DNA of 64,000 bases from Candidatus Kaiserbacteria bacterium (GCA_027451665.1 DAIDIW010000001.1:95359-159358), one strand, 5' to 3'. Numbered from the stretch's first letter, positions 37,856-49,795 are shown. Made by a program: numbers and translations. The notes: generated by a model from the letters alone, not told the origin.

Positions 37856-38920
37856 ATGTCATTCTTGGGTAACTTTTTTAAGAAAAAGAGTGGAAGCGTG
37901 CTCGGTGTCGACATCGGTTCGTCCTCGCTCAAGGTGGTGCAGCTGAAGAAGGAGCACGGCAAGGCCGTTCTCGAGACGTACGGCGAGCTCGCGCTTGGAC
38001 CGTATGCGGGTGAGGAGGTGGGTCAGGCGACGAATCTCGCGCCGGAGCAGATTGCGGAGACCTTGCGTGATCTCATGCGTGAAGCGAAGGTCACGACGAA
38101 AGAGGCGGGCGTCTCGATACCGTTCGCGCGCTCCTTGCTCACGCTCGTCACGCTCCCGTATCGCGAAAACCCTAAGGAACAGCGCACCGTCATCGAGCTC
38201 GAAGCCCGCAAGTACGTCCCAGTCCCGATAAGCGAAGTACAGCTCGACTGGTTCGTCGTCCCGGACTCTGGCACCTCTGATGGGGCACAGAAGAAACATG
38301 TCGAAGTGCTGCTTGTCGCCGTCCATAATGATGAGCTTAAATTCCTCCAGAACGTAGTGAGCGGCGCCAAGCTGGCAGCCTCTTTCTATGAAATCGAGAT
38401 ATTCAGTACCATCCGCGCGGTTGTGAACGAGCCCGTGAAGCCTGTCATGGTGCTTGATATCGGCGCAACAACGACGAAAGCGTACGTCGTTGAGCGCGGC
38501 GTGGTCGCGCTTTCGCATGCCATTGCGTCGGGAAGTCAGGACATCACGAGGGCGATTGCCGCGTCGAAAAACCTCACGCTCTCTCGCGCAGAAGCTTTGA
38601 AGAAAGAACAAGGTCTCGTGGGCGGCGACGCGAGCACGCCGGAGACGGTGTTCTCCAGGATCTTCTCAGAAGCTCGGCGCGTACTCATGCAGTATGAGAC
38701 GGCGCATGGCAAGGCGGTCACCACAATCGTGCTCACGGGCGGCGGCGGCGTCACAAAGGAGCTTCGCGCGTACGCGAAACAGTTCTTCTCGATAGATGTA
38801 CAGATCGCGGATCCGTTCGCAAAGACTGAAGCGCCCGCATTCATGCGGCCGGTCCTCGAGGAGATCGGGCCGGAGTTCGCGGTCGCCGTCGGCATTGCCC
38901 TTCGGAAACTCGAAAGCTAA
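37856..38920 (+). CDS. pilM: Type IV pilus assembly protein PilM (actin-like ATPase)
   Basis: VLGVDIGSSSLKVVQLKKEHGKAVLETYGE is the PilM/FtsA-like N-terminus. 354 aa. First gene of the pilus cluster. Confidence 0.8.
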   Translation: MSFLGNFFKKKSGSVLGVDIGSSSLKVVQLKKEHGKAVLETYGELALGPYAGEEVGQATNLAPEQIAETLRDLMREAKVTTKEAGVSIPFARSLLTLVTLPYRENPKEQRTVIELEARKYVPVPISEVQLDWFVVPDSGTSDGAQKKHVEVLLVAVHNDELKFLQNVVSGAKLAASFYEIEIFSTIRAVVNEPVKPVMVLDIGATTTKAYVVERGVVALSHAIASGSQDITRAIAASKNLTLSRAEALKKEQGLVGGDASTPETVFSRIFSEARRVLMQYETAHGKAVTTIVLTGGGGVTKELRAYAKQFFSIDVQIADPFAKTEAPAFMRPVLEEIGPEFAVAVGIALRKLES

Positions 38921-39008
38921 CAACGATAGATCTGCGCGCCGTTTGTCCCCACAACGCGCGCGCACGCGCCGCGGTCTTGCAGCCGCAGGAGGTATACTTC
39001 GGGTACGC

Positions 39009-39677
39009 ATGGCGCTTCCTCCGACCATACCGACTTCCTTCGTACCGCATCCGGGTGGCGCGACACCGAAGCGCTACCGCGCCGATTTCACAGGCGCGTT
39101 CGCGTTTTTCGCGTACGGCGTACTCGGTATAGTCGTGATTCTCGCGCTTGGCGTGTTCTTCTACGGACGTATCCTCGCATCTGAACAAGCGGCGAAGGAC
39201 GCAGCTCTACAGAAGGCCGAGTCGAGCATAAATCCTCAGACCGTTACCGAATTCGTCCGCCTGCGCGACCGGCTCTCTGCGAGCAAGCAGCTCCTCGATG
39301 CGCATGTCGCTTTTTCGCAGTTCTTCACGACCCTTGAGCAGATCCTCCCCGCGAGCGTACAGTTCGATGATCTTGAGGTCTCGATCGGCCATGGCGGCAC
39401 GCCGACGCTCAAAGGTACGGGAACGGCGAAGAATTTCAATGCGCTTGCGGCAGCGTCGAACTCGTTTGCGCAGAACGGCACCATAAAGGATGCGATTTTC
39501 TCAAACATAAAGATAAATCAGGATGGTACCGTCGCCTTCGCCATCTCGGCGACGCTTGATCCGAAGGTCATCGCCTATGCGCCGACCGCACTTGCTTCGG
39601 CTTCCACGACGCCTACGGCCGGCAGCACGGGATCGACCGTCGCGTCTTCCTCTTCGGCAACTAGTACTGCACCATGA
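39009..39677 (+). CDS. pilN: PilN-like pilus assembly protein
   Basis: A single TM (FAFFAYGVLGIVVILALGVFFYG) is followed by a periplasmic domain. The position after pilM supports the call. Confidence 0.5.
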   Translation: MALPPTIPTSFVPHPGGATPKRYRADFTGAFAFFAYGVLGIVVILALGVFFYGRILASEQAAKDAALQKAESSINPQTVTEFVRLRDRLSASKQLLDAHVAFSQFFTTLEQILPASVQFDDLEVSIGHGGTPTLKGTGTAKNFNALAAASNSFAQNGTIKDAIFSNIKINQDGTVAFAISATLDPKVIAYAPTALASASTTPTAGSTGSTVASSSSATSTAP

Positions 39678-40264
39678 ACAGCCGCATCCTGCCCATCCTC
39701 GCGCTCTTAATCTCCATAGGCATCTTCTTTGCGTATATAAATCCGACATGGAACGGCTCGATTGCGTCGGCGAAAGCGGCTATCAGCGCTGACAGCCAAG
39801 CGCTTGCTTCCGCGGACACTTTCACGAAAACGGAGAATCAGCTCGCGTCTGAGCAAGCCAGTATGAGTTCGTCAGACTTAAACCAGCTTGCGGCCATGGT
39901 TCCTGATTCGGTGGACAATGTCGGGATCATCCTCGATCTAAACGCGCTGGCTGCGCGGACCGGTCTTTCGCTCTCGAATATCGACATTGCCCAGAATTCG
40001 AACCAATCGAATGGCCAGACTACGACGCAAACGACGTCCGCTACGCCGACCAACGTCACGGGGGGAGCTGCAAGTAGCGAAGGCCCCGTCGGGAACGTTG
40101 ATCTCTCGCTTAGCGCAATCGGTACGTATGCTTCGCTTAAGCAGTTCCTCGTCGGTATCGAGCACAGTCAACGTCTCCTTGATGTGCGCGATCTCTCGAT
40201 CAAGAGTTCGAAGACGGGCGTCTATAACTACCAGATGACCATTCGGCTCTACTGGCTACGCTAA
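39674..40264 (+). CDS. pilO: PilO-like pilus assembly protein
   Basis: N-terminal TM (ILPILALLISIGIFFAY) and a coiled-coil. It is translationally coupled to the previous gene. Confidence 0.45.
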   Translation: MNSRILPILALLISIGIFFAYINPTWNGSIASAKAAISADSQALASADTFTKTENQLASEQASMSSSDLNQLAAMVPDSVDNVGIILDLNALAARTGLSLSNIDIAQNSNQSNGQTTTQTTSATPTNVTGGAASSEGPVGNVDLSLSAIGTYASLKQFLVGIEHSQRLLDVRDLSIKSSKTGVYNYQMTIRLYWLR

Positions 40265-47956: not shown

Positions 47957-48564
47957 CCGCTATGCATGCTTCTATCAGAAGACGATCGAACTGGTCCGAT
48001 AGGATGTCCGGGATGCGTCGCGCGACGCAGCCGCGCGGCTTCACGCTCATTGAGCTCATGGTCGCTGTCGGGCTTTTCGCACTCGTGATGACCCTGGCCG
48101 CTGGCGCGTACCTCATGATGATTAATGCGAATCGGCAGGCGCAGGCGCTTGCGACCGGGATCAACAATCTCTCATTTGGGCTCGAGACCATGACGCGGGA
48201 CATACGCACGGGTACCGATTACTGCGGCGGTTCAAGCTGCCCGCCCGGGACCTTCACCTTCACGAACGTGAATGGACAGACCGTTACCTATGAGCTCGTC
48301 GAGAATGGAACCACCTGCAACGGGGCGCCGGCGGGCTATCTCGCCCGCGTGACGAGCGGCGTAACCACGCCGCTCACCGATCCTTCGGTCATGATCTCCT
48401 CACTTACTTTCACTACGTTCGGGACGGCCCCGTATTCTGTCGGGAATGACACCACGCAGGCGCGGGTTACGATGGTAGTGAACGGCTGCGTGAATGCGGG
48501 ACCCGGGAAGACCCAGAATTTCACCATCGAGACGGGGGCAACCATGCGCGGCACTGACCTATGA
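47953..48564 (+). CDS. Minor pilin/pseudopilin
   Basis: QPRG|FTLIELMVAVGLFALVMTLAAG. The ATGA overlap with the upstream stop suggests coupling. Alternative internal starts lie at 48004 and 48013. Confidence 0.6.
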   Translation: MTAMHASIRRRSNWSDRMSGMRRATQPRGFTLIELMVAVGLFALVMTLAAGAYLMMINANRQAQALATGINNLSFGLETMTRDIRTGTDYCGGSSCPPGTFTFTNVNGQTVTYELVENGTTCNGAPAGYLARVTSGVTTPLTDPSVMISSLTFTTFGTAPYSVGNDTTQARVTMVVNGCVNAGPGKTQNFTIETGATMRGTDL

Positions 48565-49208
48565 TCCCTATCACTCACAAGCGTATCTCGTACGAATCGG
48601 AGCTGCCTCGCGCTTCGCTTGAATCGCGCCGCTTGGGCCGGGGGTTCACGCTCATCGAAACACTCGTCGCGATCGCCATCGTTGCGCTTGCGGTCGTCGG
48701 ACCGCTCTACACCGCAGATCGCGCAGCGGTAGCGGCGCAGCTTTCCAATGAAGAGCTCACCGCTTCCTATCTCGCGCAAGAAGGCATTGAGTACGTCCGC
48801 GCGCTGCGCGACAACGCGTATCTGTCGACCTACAATGCCTACCGGAATACTCCGGGAGCCAATATCCCCGCGATTGCCTGGAACGCCTTCCTGAATACGA
48901 ACCCTGTTTCTTCGTGCCGTACGGGCACGTGTAGTTACGATCCAATCGCAGGGCAGCTCTCCGTGTGCACGGGTTCCTGTCAGGAGCTCTATCTTGCGGA
49001 TGGCTATTACACGACCGAGAGCGGGCTTGCGAACGCTGCTTGGACGCCGTACACCCGGTCCATTCAGGTACAGAACATCACGCCCGCACCTCCTACCGAC
49101 GCACAGGGGAACCCGGTCGATGTGCAGGCGGTGTCCACCGTAACGTGGGATTTCCACGGCACGCCGCATACCGTGAGCATCGCGGAAGATCTTACGCCAT
49201 GGCAATGA
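48561..49208 (+). CDS. Minor pilin/pseudopilin
   Basis: LGRG|FTLIETLVAIAIVALAVVGPLY. ATGA overlap with the upstream stop. 28-aa leader. Confidence 0.6.
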   Translation: MIPITHKRISYESELPRASLESRRLGRGFTLIETLVAIAIVALAVVGPLYTADRAAVAAQLSNEELTASYLAQEGIEYVRALRDNAYLSTYNAYRNTPGANIPAIAWNAFLNTNPVSSCRTGTCSYDPIAGQLSVCTGSCQELYLADGYYTTESGLANAAWTPYTRSIQVQNITPAPPTDAQGNPVDVQAVSTVTWDFHGTPHTVSIAEDLTPWQ

Positions 49209-49795
49209 ACCGGAGATATTTGGTACGCGATACGAGTTTGCGCAACGGGACGCTTCCGGACGCGCACACTCAGGCTCTTCCCCTTGCGGCACGCCGCGGC
49301 TTCGCGCTTCTTATCGCGGTCATCTTCGCGGCGGTGATGCTCACCATCGGACTTGCGCTCGGCTCGCTCGGGTATAAGCAGCAGGTCATTTCTTCATCTG
49401 CCATTGAGTCGCAGTACGCGTTTTATGCGGCCGATTCGGCGCTTGAATGCGCCCTCTACTACGACCAGCAGCAGAATCATTTTGCCTACGATTCGACGCA
49501 ACAAGTCCCGTCCTCCGCCTACAGTTTCTCCTGCGACGGCGTCACCTCCCTGCAGATCCCGGGCGTATCCCCGAAGACGTATCAATCCATGGGTTCATAC
49601 ACCGACCAGGTGCTTACGTTCCGCCTCTCCCTCGACAGCGGCCAGCGCTGCGCGGATGTGACAATCTATAAGCCTTCCGATCCTGCCCAGAAGACATACC
49701 TGTTCTCGCAGGGATACGACATATCCTGTACCGCGGTAGAAAGCGCTACCGCCGACACGCGTTATGTATCCCGCGGGCTCGAGACGAGCTACTAG
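49199..49795 (+). CDS. PilX/PilW-like minor pilin with non-canonical N-terminus
   Basis: ARRG|[23 protein letters not shown] is a hydrophobic helix after a Gly but lacks the E+5. Last gene of the pilus cluster. Confidence 0.45.

What the first reader, a model, noticed from the sequence alone, without database searches (positions are those of the whole stretch)
37856..49795. Complete type IV pilus locus with an embedded stand-alone receiver domain
pilM-pilN-pilO-small TM protein-pilB-CheY-like receiver-pilT-pilC-two pilins-pilD-four minor pilins form one 12-kb co-directional array with several 4-nt overlaps. The receiver-only response regulator between pilB and pilT suggests phosphorylation-dependent switching between extension and retraction ATPases. 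No secretin (PilQ) is present, consistent with a cell envelope lacking an outer membrane.
Basis: partly seen in the sequence, partly recalled or inferred. Interest (0 to 1): 0.5.

Follow-up and report, generated by a model that had tools for sequence, protein, structure and literature searches.

The report
CPR pilus operon with embedded receiver
This is the standard secretin-less type IV pilus operon of ultra-small Parcubacteria (Kaiserbacteria-like) bacteria, and its one little-studied feature is a CheY-like receiver gene fused tightly to the front of the retraction-motor gene pilT in every close relative examined.

Summary
Bases 37856-49795 (+) encode pilM, pilN, pilO, a small membrane protein, pilB, a 139-aa receiver, pilT, pilC, two pilins, pilD and four minor pilins.

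The window comes from a candidate-phyla-radiation bacterium, close to Ca. Kaiserbacteria. The same gene order, down to ligA and gatA downstream, occurs in all 77 related species genomes examined. The operon and its missing PilQ are already published for this group, so the locus itself is ordinary.

The receiver is the less trivial part:
- It keeps every phospho-acceptor residue (D9, D10, D55, S/T85, Y104, K107).
- It is as conserved as the motor proteins.
- It lies within 13 nt of pilT in 78 of 78 loci, while insertions do occur at the pilB and pilC junctions.
- It has no kinase within 10 kb.
- It is absent from the otherwise identical operon of cultured Minisyncoccus archaeiphilus.

Its nearest relatives outside the family are CPR tandem-receiver proteins that sit next to histidine kinases.

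A phosphorylation-controlled regulator of PilT and/or PilB is the best reading, but no interaction was tested. I found no paper that describes it.

Verdict: a new variant of a known kind, of modest interest.

The parts
37856..38920 (+). pilM (actin-like cytoplasmic assembly protein)
   Evidence: PF11104 7e-40. TIGR01175 163.9 bits, above its 133 cut-off.
39009..39677 (+). pilN-like bitopic membrane protein (the ORF opens at 38796; the likely start is 39009)
   Evidence: PF05137 20.7 bits, just below its 22.8 cut-off. Homologous to the gene in the same position in all relatives. Start position.
39674..40264 (+). pilO
   Evidence: PF04350 30.2 bits, above its 22 cut-off, plus weak T2SSM hits. 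ATGA overlap with pilN.
40286..40576 (+). Small conserved membrane protein: an N-terminal TM helix, then the motif IFSDxRF..LVD..TP..PE..GRxDPFAP
   Evidence: No Pfam or NCBIfam hit. Present at this position in 74 related loci, median 50% identity. An uncharacterised gene also occupies this position in Minisyncoccus (MNSC_02720).
40755..42566 (+). pilB extension ATPase (MshEN/GspE-N domain plus T2SSE)
   Evidence: PF00437 4e-119 and PF05157 3e-13. TIGR02538 484 bits, which is below the equivalog cut-off.
42568..42605 (+). Perfect 16-bp stem-loop between pilB and the receiver gene
   Evidence: sequence. Not conserved in relatives: 3 of 71 have a stem of 8 bp or more.
42640..43059 (+). Stand-alone receiver (139 aa) of a CPR-specific family
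   Evidence: PF00072 5.6e-18. Catalytic residues conserved. AF2 model pLDDT 87 with a (beta-alpha)5 fold. Between pilB and pilT in every related locus that holds both.
43056..44114 (+). pilT retraction ATPase; its ATG overlaps the receiver's stop codon (ATGA)
   Evidence: TIGR01420 417 bits, above its 319 cut-off. Gap to the receiver gene is 13 nt or less in 78 of 78 loci.
44154..45359 (+). pilC platform protein
   Evidence: PF00482, two domains, 1e-58. NF052607 296 bits.
45383..45410 (+). Perfect 12-bp stem-loop between pilC and the first pilin gene
   Evidence: Not conserved in relatives.
45477..45926 (+). Major-type pilin 1 (leader MKNVRSRG | FTLIELLVV...)
   Evidence: N_methyl 1e-09. 64% identical to pilin 2.
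45961..46428 (+). Major-type pilin 2 (paralogue of pilin 1)
   Evidence: N_methyl 4.6e-10.
46446..46482 (+). Perfect 16-bp stem-loop after the pilin genes, before pilD
   Evidence: A stem of 8 bp or more sits at this junction in 42 of 59 related loci, with unrelated sequences.
46494..47264 (+). pilD prepilin peptidase / N-methyltransferase
   Evidence: A24_N_bact 70 bits; Peptidase_A24 23.6 bits, below its 26.5 cut-off. The CxxC...CC Zn motif and GLAD(IP) Asp motif are read directly from the translation.
47222..47956 (+). Minor pilin 1 (GFTLIELLV)
   Evidence: N_methyl 1.9e-09. Weak GspH-like N-terminal match.
47953..48564 (+). Minor pilin 2 (GFTLIELMV)
   Evidence: N_methyl 8.9e-08.
48561..49208 (+). 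Minor pilin 3 (GFTLIETLV)
   Evidence: N_methyl 3.2e-06.
49205..49795 (+). Minor pilin-like protein 4, lacking Glu5 ([10 protein letters not shown]); the start is 49199 or 49205
   Evidence: No Pfam hit. Sequence read. Conserved at this position in 51 related loci.

Best explanation
The region is the lineage-typical type IVa-like pilus operon of a Parcubacteria (Kaiserbacteria-like) bacterium that lacks an outer membrane.

Roles of the parts, by homology to characterised systems:
- PilM, PilN, PilO and a small membrane protein form the alignment complex.
- PilC is the platform.
- PilB polymerises pilins that PilD has processed.
- Four minor pilins prime the fibre.
- PilT retracts it.
- No secretin is needed.

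The embedded 139-aa protein is a genuine phosphorylatable receiver with no output domain. It is dedicated to this machine. It is made from the same message as PilT and is probably translationally coupled to it.

The most likely mechanism is as follows. An unlinked histidine kinase phosphorylates it. Candidates are the kinases of the CPR [sensor]-HisKA kinase-tandem-receiver modules, whose receiver domains are its closest relatives. The phosphorylated form then changes its binding to the hexameric motor ATPases, PilT first and possibly PilB too. This would tune the balance between retraction and extension in response to a host or environmental signal.

Shown: gene content, conservation, linkage, intact active site and fold. 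Inferred: phosphorylation, the identity of the kinase, and the binding partner.
For: Component identities.

CPR origin:
- Receiver homologues are named Parcubacteria, Paceibacterota, Kaiserbacteria or Minisyncoccota.
- S5 and L15 are adjacent with no L30 gene between them.

Synteny: invariant in 77 of 77 species genomes plus L001 and L003. It also holds for family members only 45-51% identical.

Conservation of the receiver: median identity to the window 71.8%. That compares with PilB 72.7, PilM 72.5, PilT 78.5 and PilC 79.1, and exceeds LigA at 67.8.

Active site: D9, D10, Y104 and K107 are 100% conserved, D55 is conserved in 78 of 79, and position 85 is S or T in 79 of 79.

Fold: canonical (beta-alpha)5, pLDDT 87, matching solved receivers.

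Coupling to pilT: the receiver-to-pilT gap is 13 nt or less in 78 of 78 loci and is an ATGA overlap in the window. Gene-sized insertions occur between pilB and the receiver gene (1 case) and between pilT and pilC (4 cases), but never between the receiver gene and pilT.

Regulatory rather than structural role: the otherwise identical operon of cultured Minisyncoccus archaeiphilus runs pilB (MNSC_02730) then pilT (MNSC_02740) with no receiver.

Kinases exist in the lineage, next to the closest-related receiver domains.

Precedent: a receiver-only regulator, DrdR, binds PilB and PilT and raises their ATPase activity (PMC13507683).
Against: - No histidine kinase, Hpt or Che gene lies in the 64-kb window or within 10 kb of the receiver in 77 relatives. 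Phosphorylation therefore has no identified source.
- The rest of the source genome could not be read.
- The kinase/tandem-receiver module lay near a pilus operon in only one of five distinct loci.
- Distance-matrix correlation does not single out PilT over PilB or PilC as partner.
- The Lys is followed by Ala, not the usual cis-Pro, and there is a 2-residue insertion in the beta5-alpha5 loop. Switch behaviour may therefore differ from CheY.
- Gene adjacency is not proof of binding.
Confidence: 0.55

Rival explanations
1. The receiver acts mainly on PilB (extension), or on both motors as a true extension/retraction switch. It would do so by competing for, or recruiting, one ATPase at the PilC/PilM platform.
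For: The gene lies between pilB and pilT in all loci. DrdR binds both ATPases (PMC13507683). In P. aeruginosa PilG promotes PilB polar recruitment (PMC11656802). The receiver's distance matrix correlates with PilB about as well as with PilT (partial r 0.605 against 0.607).
Against: The pilB-to-receiver junction is looser: median 26 nt, up to 253 nt, and one 1428-nt insertion carrying an opposite-strand gene. In the window a 16-bp hairpin separates pilB from the receiver gene. No interaction data exist.
Confidence: 0.2
2. The receiver is a phosphate sink or side branch of an unlinked two-component pathway (kinase to tandem receiver). It would shape signal kinetics without touching the pilus motor, and its position in the operon would only secure co-expression.
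For: Its nearest relatives are the tandem-receiver partners of CPR kinases. PilH has been discussed as a phosphate sink (PMC11656802). It has no output domain.
Against: A sink has no reason to be as conserved as the motor proteins, or to stay within 13 nt of pilT in 78 of 78 genomes. The alpha1 and beta5-alpha5 surfaces are invariant across the family, which suggests a fixed protein partner.
Confidence: 0.1
3. The receiver is a phosphorylation-independent accessory subunit (pseudo-receiver use) that stabilises or localises PilT.
For: No linked kinase. An atypical Lys-Ala in place of Lys-Pro. The FimX REC domain works without the acceptor Asp (PMC11656802).
Against: All residues needed for phosphoryl transfer are retained across 45-93% identity, including both metal-binding Asp, the acceptor Asp, Ser/Thr, Tyr and Lys. 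Pseudo-receivers usually lose them. Minisyncoccus builds the same operon without it.
Confidence: 0.1
4. The receiver controls gene expression (for example of the pilin genes) through a protein partner such as a sigma or anti-sigma factor, rather than the motor.
For: Two ECF-type sigma factors are in the window. Sequence searches place it nearest OmpR/PhoB-type and Spo0A receivers.
Against: It has no DNA-binding or partner-switch domain. The sigma genes are 20 kb or more away and are not part of the conserved synteny. The tight coupling is to pilT.
Confidence: 0.05

Closest known systems
Type IV pilus operon of Parcubacteria/CPR (Nelson & Stegen 2015, PMC4508563; Meheust et al. 2019, PMC6744442)
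   Same: The same components co-localised (PilM, N, O, B, T, C, D and pilins). PilQ is absent. The organisms are CPR. The window's locus is a member of this published operon type.
   Different: Neither paper mentions a response regulator in the operon (0 occurrences). They also do not describe the small fourth alignment-complex gene or the four-gene minor-pilin set.
Minisyncoccus archaeiphilus PMX.108 pilus operon (MNSC_02690-02770; PMC12281837, supplementary table)
   Same: The same skeleton: pilM, pilN, pilO, an uncharacterised gene, pilB, pilT, pilC, major pilin.
   Different: pilB and pilT are directly adjacent with no receiver gene. The receiver is therefore a lineage-specific addition found in Kaiserbacteria-like and other Paceibacteria.
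PilG/PilH single-domain response regulators of the Pseudomonas aeruginosa Pil-Chp system
   Same: Receiver-only proteins that bias type IV pilus extension against retraction. JGI's pipeline gave one homologue (P0053) a 'twitching motility two-component' regulator name.
   Different: PilG and PilH are encoded with a CheA-type kinase (ChpA), an MCP and CheW-like genes, and they act partly through cAMP and polar localisation (PMC11656802). Here no chemosensory genes or kinase are linked, and the gene sits inside the motor cluster. By sequence it is nearest to OmpR/PhoB-type and Spo0A receivers, not a PilG/H model.
DrdR of Xanthomonas campestris (PMC13507683)
   Same: An orphan regulator with no output domain, made only of receiver domains, shown to bind both PilB and PilT and stimulate their ATPase. 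This is the closest functional precedent for the proposed mechanism.
   Different: DrdR has two receiver domains (one degenerate), is not encoded between pilB and pilT, and comes from a diderm with PilQ. The window protein has one canonical receiver. CPR tandem-receiver proteins do exist, but next to kinases rather than in the pilus operon.
pilB-pilT-pilC core cluster of Myxococcus, Geobacter and cyanobacteria, and Gram-positive (clostridial) secretin-less type IV pili
   Same: The pilB, pilT, pilC order. Monoderm systems lack PilQ (own knowledge; Melville & Craig 2013 as cited in PMC4508563).
   Different: In those clusters regulation comes from PilS/PilR pairs or unlinked systems. No receiver gene interrupts pilB-pilT (own knowledge, not tested here).

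Membership tests
Type IVa pilus machinery | PilB-type extension ATPase with an N-terminal GspE-N/MshEN domain | tested here: met
   PF00437 4e-119 and PF05157 3e-13. TIGR02538 484 bits, below the strict equivalog cut-off of 675.
Type IVa pilus machinery | Dedicated PilT retraction ATPase | tested here: met
   TIGR01420 417 bits, above its 319.1 cut-off, full length.
Type IVa pilus machinery | PilC platform with two T2SSF domains; PilM/PilN/PilO alignment proteins | tested here: met
   PilC has two T2SSF stretches. PilM TIGR01175 is above its cut-off. PilO PF04350 is above its cut-off. PilN scores 20.7 bits against a 22.8 cut-off, so it is called by position and homology to relatives.
Type IVa pilus machinery | Prepilins with a short leader, G|F(T)LIE, and a prepilin peptidase | tested here: met
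   Five N_methyl hits. Leaders of 7-8 aa on the two major pilins. PilD A24_N_bact 70 bits.
Type IVa pilus machinery (diderm form) | PilQ secretin (with PilP, TsaP) | tested here: not met
   No secretin motif or Pfam hit among window ORFs, and none in the conserved operon of 77 relatives. The rest of the genome was not readable. Absence is the published rule for CPR (PMC4508563, PMC6744442).
Canonical phospho-accepting receiver (CheY-like REC) | Acidic pocket (CheY D12, D13) and acceptor Asp (D57) | tested here: met
   D9 and D10 in 79 of 79; D55 in 78 of 79, with one Glu.
Canonical phospho-accepting receiver (CheY-like REC) | Switch residues Thr/Ser87, Tyr/Phe106, Lys109 | tested here: met
   Position 85 is S in 71 and T in 8. 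Y104 and K107 are invariant.
Canonical phospho-accepting receiver (CheY-like REC) | Lys109-Pro110 cis-peptide | tested here: not met
   K107 is followed by an invariant Ala. The family motif is K-A-x-A-x-P-S-E-V, with a 2-residue insertion relative to CheY.
Canonical phospho-accepting receiver (CheY-like REC) | (beta-alpha)5 fold | tested here: met
   AF2 pLDDT 87.2, order E-H-E-H-E-H-E-H-E-H. Foldseek TM 0.78-0.80 to solved receivers.
Canonical phospho-accepting receiver (CheY-like REC) | A cognate histidine kinase or phosphodonor | tested here: inconclusive
   None in the window or within 10 kb in 77 relatives. Kinases do exist in Kaiserbacteria genomes.
PilG/PilH (Pil-Chp) regulators | Encoded in, and fed by, a CheA/CheW/MCP chemosensory cluster | tested here: not met
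   No such genes flank the locus in the window or appear in the relatives' gene tables.
PilG/PilH (Pil-Chp) regulators | Specific sequence orthology to PilG or PilH | not tested
   No PilG/H-specific model is among the NCBIfam or PDB hits. The best hits are Spo0A, MtrA, PhoB and VicR receivers. No direct comparison with reference PilG/H sequences was made.
DrdR-like receiver-only motor regulators | Tandem receiver domains (one degenerate) | tested here: not met
   A single receiver domain of 139 aa.
DrdR-like receiver-only motor regulators | Physical binding to PilB and PilT with an effect on ATPase activity | not testable with these tools
   Needs a pull-down, two-hybrid or ATPase assay, or a multimer structure prediction.

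The most novel reading that the evidence does not exclude
A CPR-specific family of single-domain receivers has become a built-in, translationally coupled partner of the PilT retraction motor in Kaiserbacteria-like Paceibacteria. It would be phosphorylated by unlinked [sensor]-kinase-tandem-receiver modules. These small genomes would then hold a minimal, output-domain-free signalling path running from an extracellular or host cue directly to pilus retraction. That would be the control point for host attachment or DNA uptake in episymbiotic ultra-small bacteria.
Probability: 0.3. Interest if true: 0.55.

Novelty: new variant of a known kind. Interest (0 to 1): 0.35.

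Why it matters
Type IV pili are thought to be central to how CPR bacteria find, bind and take DNA from their hosts. Nothing is known about how these organisms control pilus dynamics.

This receiver is conserved at the level of the motor proteins, is always welded to pilT, and is missing from at least one cultured relative with the same operon. That makes it a concrete, testable candidate for the control point.

It also points to a clade of CPR receiver domains (SNxGQ and K-A-x-x-x-P-x-E motifs) shared with kinase-linked tandem-receiver proteins.

The pilus operon itself and the missing secretin add nothing new.

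Tried and rejected
- **Exact look-up of the window's PilT and receiver:** nothing on record, so the source contig could not be read beyond the window.
- **Regex scan for kinase H-box and G-box motifs:** too strict, because CPR kinases have HQLRTP. It was replaced by tblastn with a real CPR kinase. That control detected kinases in non-CPR loci but none near the pilus operons.
- **GGDEF motif at 63503 (-):** a spurious 42-aa ORF, not a cyclase.
- **Mirror-tree and partial correlation of distance matrices:** the receiver tracks PilB, PilT and PilC equally, so this is uninformative about the partner.
- **Metagenome scan with the L088 kinase:** only 12 loci, of which two (L096, L097) added kinase/tandem-receiver modules. 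Only L088/L089, found earlier through the tandem receiver, has a pilus gene within 10 kb. A general kinase-to-pilus linkage is rejected.
- **Small protein against Pfam at E up to 10:** no PilP or other family. The idea that it is a truncated PilP rests only on a remembered 'R-x-P-F' resemblance and is not supported by any test.
- **Literature hits for 'PilH' in CPR papers:** these were the author name Pilhofer.
- **Structure search of the receiver model:** only generic receivers, no specific family.
- **Hairpins at the pilB|receiver and pilC|pilin junctions:** not conserved in relatives.

Full report

Yes. ORF listing and translation plus Pfam and NCBIfam scans show fifteen co-directional genes between 37856 and 49795:
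- pilM (PF11104 7e-40; TIGR01175 above its cut-off).
- A pilN-like gene (PF05137 20.7 bits, just under the 22.8 cut-off).
- pilO (PF04350).
- A 96-100-aa membrane protein with no family.
- pilB (MshEN plus T2SSE, 4e-119).
- A receiver-only protein (PF00072 5.6e-18).
- pilT (TIGR01420 417 bits, cut-off 319).
- pilC (two T2SSF domains).
- Two paralogous pilins, 64% identical.
- pilD (A24_N_bact 70 bits).
- Three minor pilins with G|FTLIE.
- A fourth pilin-like protein that lacks Glu5 (GFALLIAV).

ATGA overlaps occur at pilN/pilO, receiver/pilT, and minor pilins 1/2 and 2/3, and probably 3/4.

Several mechanical ORF starts are too early. Homologues and an intergenic hairpin place the real starts at about 39009 (pilN), 40755 (pilB), 42640 (receiver, MAYRIF...), 46494 (pilD) and 49199 or 49205.

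**2. Whose genome is it?**

Homologues of the receiver are named Parcubacteria, Paceibacterota, Minisyncoccota or Ca. Kaiserbacteria (lineage). The window has ribosomal proteins S5 and L15 adjacent with no L30 gene between them. From my own knowledge, that is a hallmark of the candidate phyla radiation. G+C is about 59%, which fits the G+C values embedded in the names of the Kaiserbacteria MAGs that matched.

**3. Is the arrangement special to this genome?**

No. A scan of one genome per species returned 77 CPR loci. tblastn with all window proteins shows the same order in every one, as far as each contig reaches: pilM-N-O-small-pilB-receiver-pilT-pilC-pilins-pilD-four minor pilins-ligA-gatA. 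Metagenome contigs L001 and L003 show the same order.

At 50% clustering the receiver family has about 30 representative clusters (45-75% identity, 124-141 aa). All carry the signature DDDxFLxDMYxxKF ... LSNQGQ ... DGYIVKAxxxPSEV. Three distant members were checked (51%, 48% and 46% identity) and they again lie between pilB and pilT.

The operon and the lack of PilQ in Parcubacteria/CPR are already published (PMC4508563; PMC6744442). So the locus as a whole is a known kind of thing.

**4. No secretin, kinase or PilZ nearby.**

Motif scans and Pfam scans of the remaining sizeable ORFs of the window found none. The one GGDEF string is in a spurious ORF.

A first regex scan for kinases in the related loci was too strict. 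tblastn with a genuine CPR kinase is the better control. It finds kinases in the three non-CPR loci but none in the window or in the CPR pilus loci, which hold 1.2 Mb. The receiver is also the only receiver domain in the window.

The rest of the source genome could not be read, because exact look-ups failed.

**5. The receiver itself.**

- Aligned with E. coli CheY (sequence from memory) and 78 family members, it keeps D9/D10 (CheY D12/D13, 100%), D55 (D57, 78 of 79), S/T85 (T87, 79 of 79), Y104 (Y106, 100%) and K107 (K109, 100%).
- It departs from the norm in having an invariant Ala instead of Pro after the Lys, and a two-residue insertion, giving the invariant motif K-A-S-A-I-P-S-E-V. It also has an invariant alpha1 face (F13, L14, Y18, K21, F22).
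- AlphaFold gives a confident canonical (beta-alpha)5 fold (pLDDT 87) with a disordered tail at 128-139. Foldseek finds only generic receivers: VicR, CheY4, RpaA, PorX.
- Sequence searches place it nearest OmpR/PhoB-type and Spo0A receivers, not any pilus-specific family.

**6. How tightly is it tied to the machine?**

Median identity to the window across the related loci is 71.8% for the receiver. That equals PilB (72.7) and PilM (72.5), is close to PilT (78.5) and PilC (79.1), is above LigA (67.8), and is far above PilN, PilO, the pilins and PilD (41-56%).

The gap between the receiver's stop and pilT's start is 13 nt or less in 78 of 78 loci. A few negative values come from run-on ORFs.

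The pilB-to-receiver gap is looser: median 26 nt, up to 253 nt, and once 1428 nt with an opposite-strand gene inserted (L001). The pilT-to-pilC junction has four insertions of 356-3881 nt. Evolution has thus broken both neighbouring junctions but never the receiver-pilT junction.

**7. It is an accessory, not a core part.**

The supplementary gene table of the cultured Minisyncoccus archaeiphilus lists consecutive locus tags: pilM (MNSC_02690), pilN, pilO, an uncharacterised protein, pilB (02730), pilT (02740), pilC (02750) and the major pilin (02760). There is no receiver. The TM7x pilus loci described in PMC11623550 also list none. The receiver is therefore a lineage-specific addition, which argues for a regulatory rather than a structural role.

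**8. Where could phosphate come from?**

After the family itself, the best matches in the 1.8-billion-protein library are 250-300-aa proteins made of two receiver domains. They are 35-40% identical and share the SNxGQ and K-A-x-x-x-P-x-E motifs.

Where context could be read, each follows a HisKA+HATPase_c kinase preceded by a sensor-type gene:
- FIST in L088.
- An ABC-type binding protein plus a dCache kinase in Ca. Kaiserbacteria GCA_001783375.1.
- An unknown protein in L093.

Homologous kinases are annotated in Kaiserbacteria. In L088 this module lies 5 kb from pilM, but in four other distinct loci no pilus gene is within reach. So kinases with related receiver partners exist in the lineage, but no specific kinase can be assigned.

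**9. Mechanism.**

Shown: gene content, synteny, conservation, an intact phospho-acceptor site, the fold, and exclusive tight coupling to pilT.

Inferred: the receiver is phosphorylated by an unlinked kinase and, depending on phosphorylation, binds the motor ATPases to shift the retraction/extension balance. PilT is the first candidate because of the coupling. PilB is possible.

Precedents:
- DrdR, a receiver-only protein that binds PilB and PilT and raises their ATPase activity (PMC13507683).
- PilG/PilH (PMC11656802).

A mirror-tree test could not separate PilT from PilB or PilC as partner. Rival readings are a PilB-directed or dual switch, a phosphate sink, a phosphorylation-independent subunit, and an expression regulator. 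They are listed with their evidence in the report sections.

**10. Comparison and novelty.**

- Membership in the type IVa pilus machinery (monoderm, secretin-less form) is met on all tested features except PilQ.
- Membership in canonical receivers is met except for the Lys-Pro cis-peptide, and a kinase is unassigned.
- It is not a PilG/PilH-type system (no chemosensory cluster) and not DrdR-like in architecture (one domain).
- Full-text searches combining CPR or Patescibacteria terms with type IV pili and response regulator, PilG or PilH found no paper describing this receiver. Apparent 'PilH' hits were the author name Pilhofer. Subscription literature was not searchable.
- I rate the pilus operon as already known, and the embedded pilT-coupled receiver as a new variant of a known kind of regulation, of modest interest.

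Noticed in passing
window 46446-46482; related loci L003, L025, L049, L055, L059, L074, L078, L079 and others: A perfect 16-bp stem-loop follows the last major pilin gene and precedes pilD. A strong stem (8 bp or more; 12 bp or more in 37) sits at the same junction in 42 of 59 related loci, with unrelated sequences. It is probably a conserved terminator/attenuator or mRNA-stabilising element that sets pilin expression against downstream expression.
   Followed up: partly
window 42568-42605 and 45383-45410: Two further perfect hairpins (16 bp and 12 bp) bracket the receiver-pilT-pilC block in this genome. Neither is conserved in relatives.
   Followed up: partly
window 40286-40576: The small membrane protein after pilO is conserved in 74 related loci: a TM helix, then IFSDPRF..LVDL.TP..PE..GR.DPFAP. 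An uncharacterised gene also sits in this position in Minisyncoccus (MNSC_02720). It has no Pfam family. It may be a fourth alignment-complex subunit, and a PilP-like role is only a guess.
   Followed up: partly
L088 5816-8813; L093 1548-4985; L094 8959-12533; L096; L097: A recurrent CPR three-gene signalling module: a sensor-type protein (FIST, ABC-type binding protein or unknown), a HisKA/HATPase_c kinase, and a protein made of two receiver domains with no output domain. The receiver domains share unusual motifs (SNxGQ; K-A-x-x-x-P-x-E) with the pilus receiver.
   Followed up: partly
window 3201-4231: The ribosomal protein S5 and L15 genes are 11 nt apart with no L30 gene between them. This fits the known absence of L30 in CPR bacteria (the CPR rule is from my own knowledge).
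   Followed up: partly
window ~54000-58400: G+C drops from about 0.60 to 0.51. The stretch holds a serine recombinase (56708-57871, -; Recombinase plus Zn_ribbon_recom) and several ORFs with no Pfam hit. It is probably an integrated mobile element.
   Followed up: no
window 63050-63695: A + strand gene is split between two frames (63050-63547 and 63426-63695). By eye it looks like a phosphoribosyltransferase, but this was not tested. It is a frameshift, pseudogene or assembly error. A Pribosyltran gene sits next to pilM in several relatives (L003, L085, L088).
   Followed up: no
window 31537-36167: A membrane-fusion (HlyD-like) gene and an AcrB-family RND transporter gene sit just upstream of the pilus locus, in an organism presumed to lack an outer membrane. 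No TolC-like gene was seen.
   Followed up: no
window 17983-18501 and 19706-20179: A VKOR-family protein and an AhpC/TSA peroxiredoxin. VKOR and thiol-disulfide oxidoreductases are reported as CPR-enriched and linked to pilin folding (PMC6744442). Both major pilins here have Cys pairs.
   Followed up: no
L016, L023, L069, L070 (receiver ORFs): In four related genomes the receiver ORF runs on to 159-212 aa and overlaps pilT in another frame. L016 contains Ns. These are likely lost stops or assembly artefacts rather than fusions.
   Followed up: partly
L003 11539-11892 and L085 4323-4706: Small genes with a 23S_rRNA_IVP (four-helix bundle) domain are inserted inside the pilus operon of relatives, between pilT and pilC or between pilM and pilN. 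None is present in the window.
   Followed up: no
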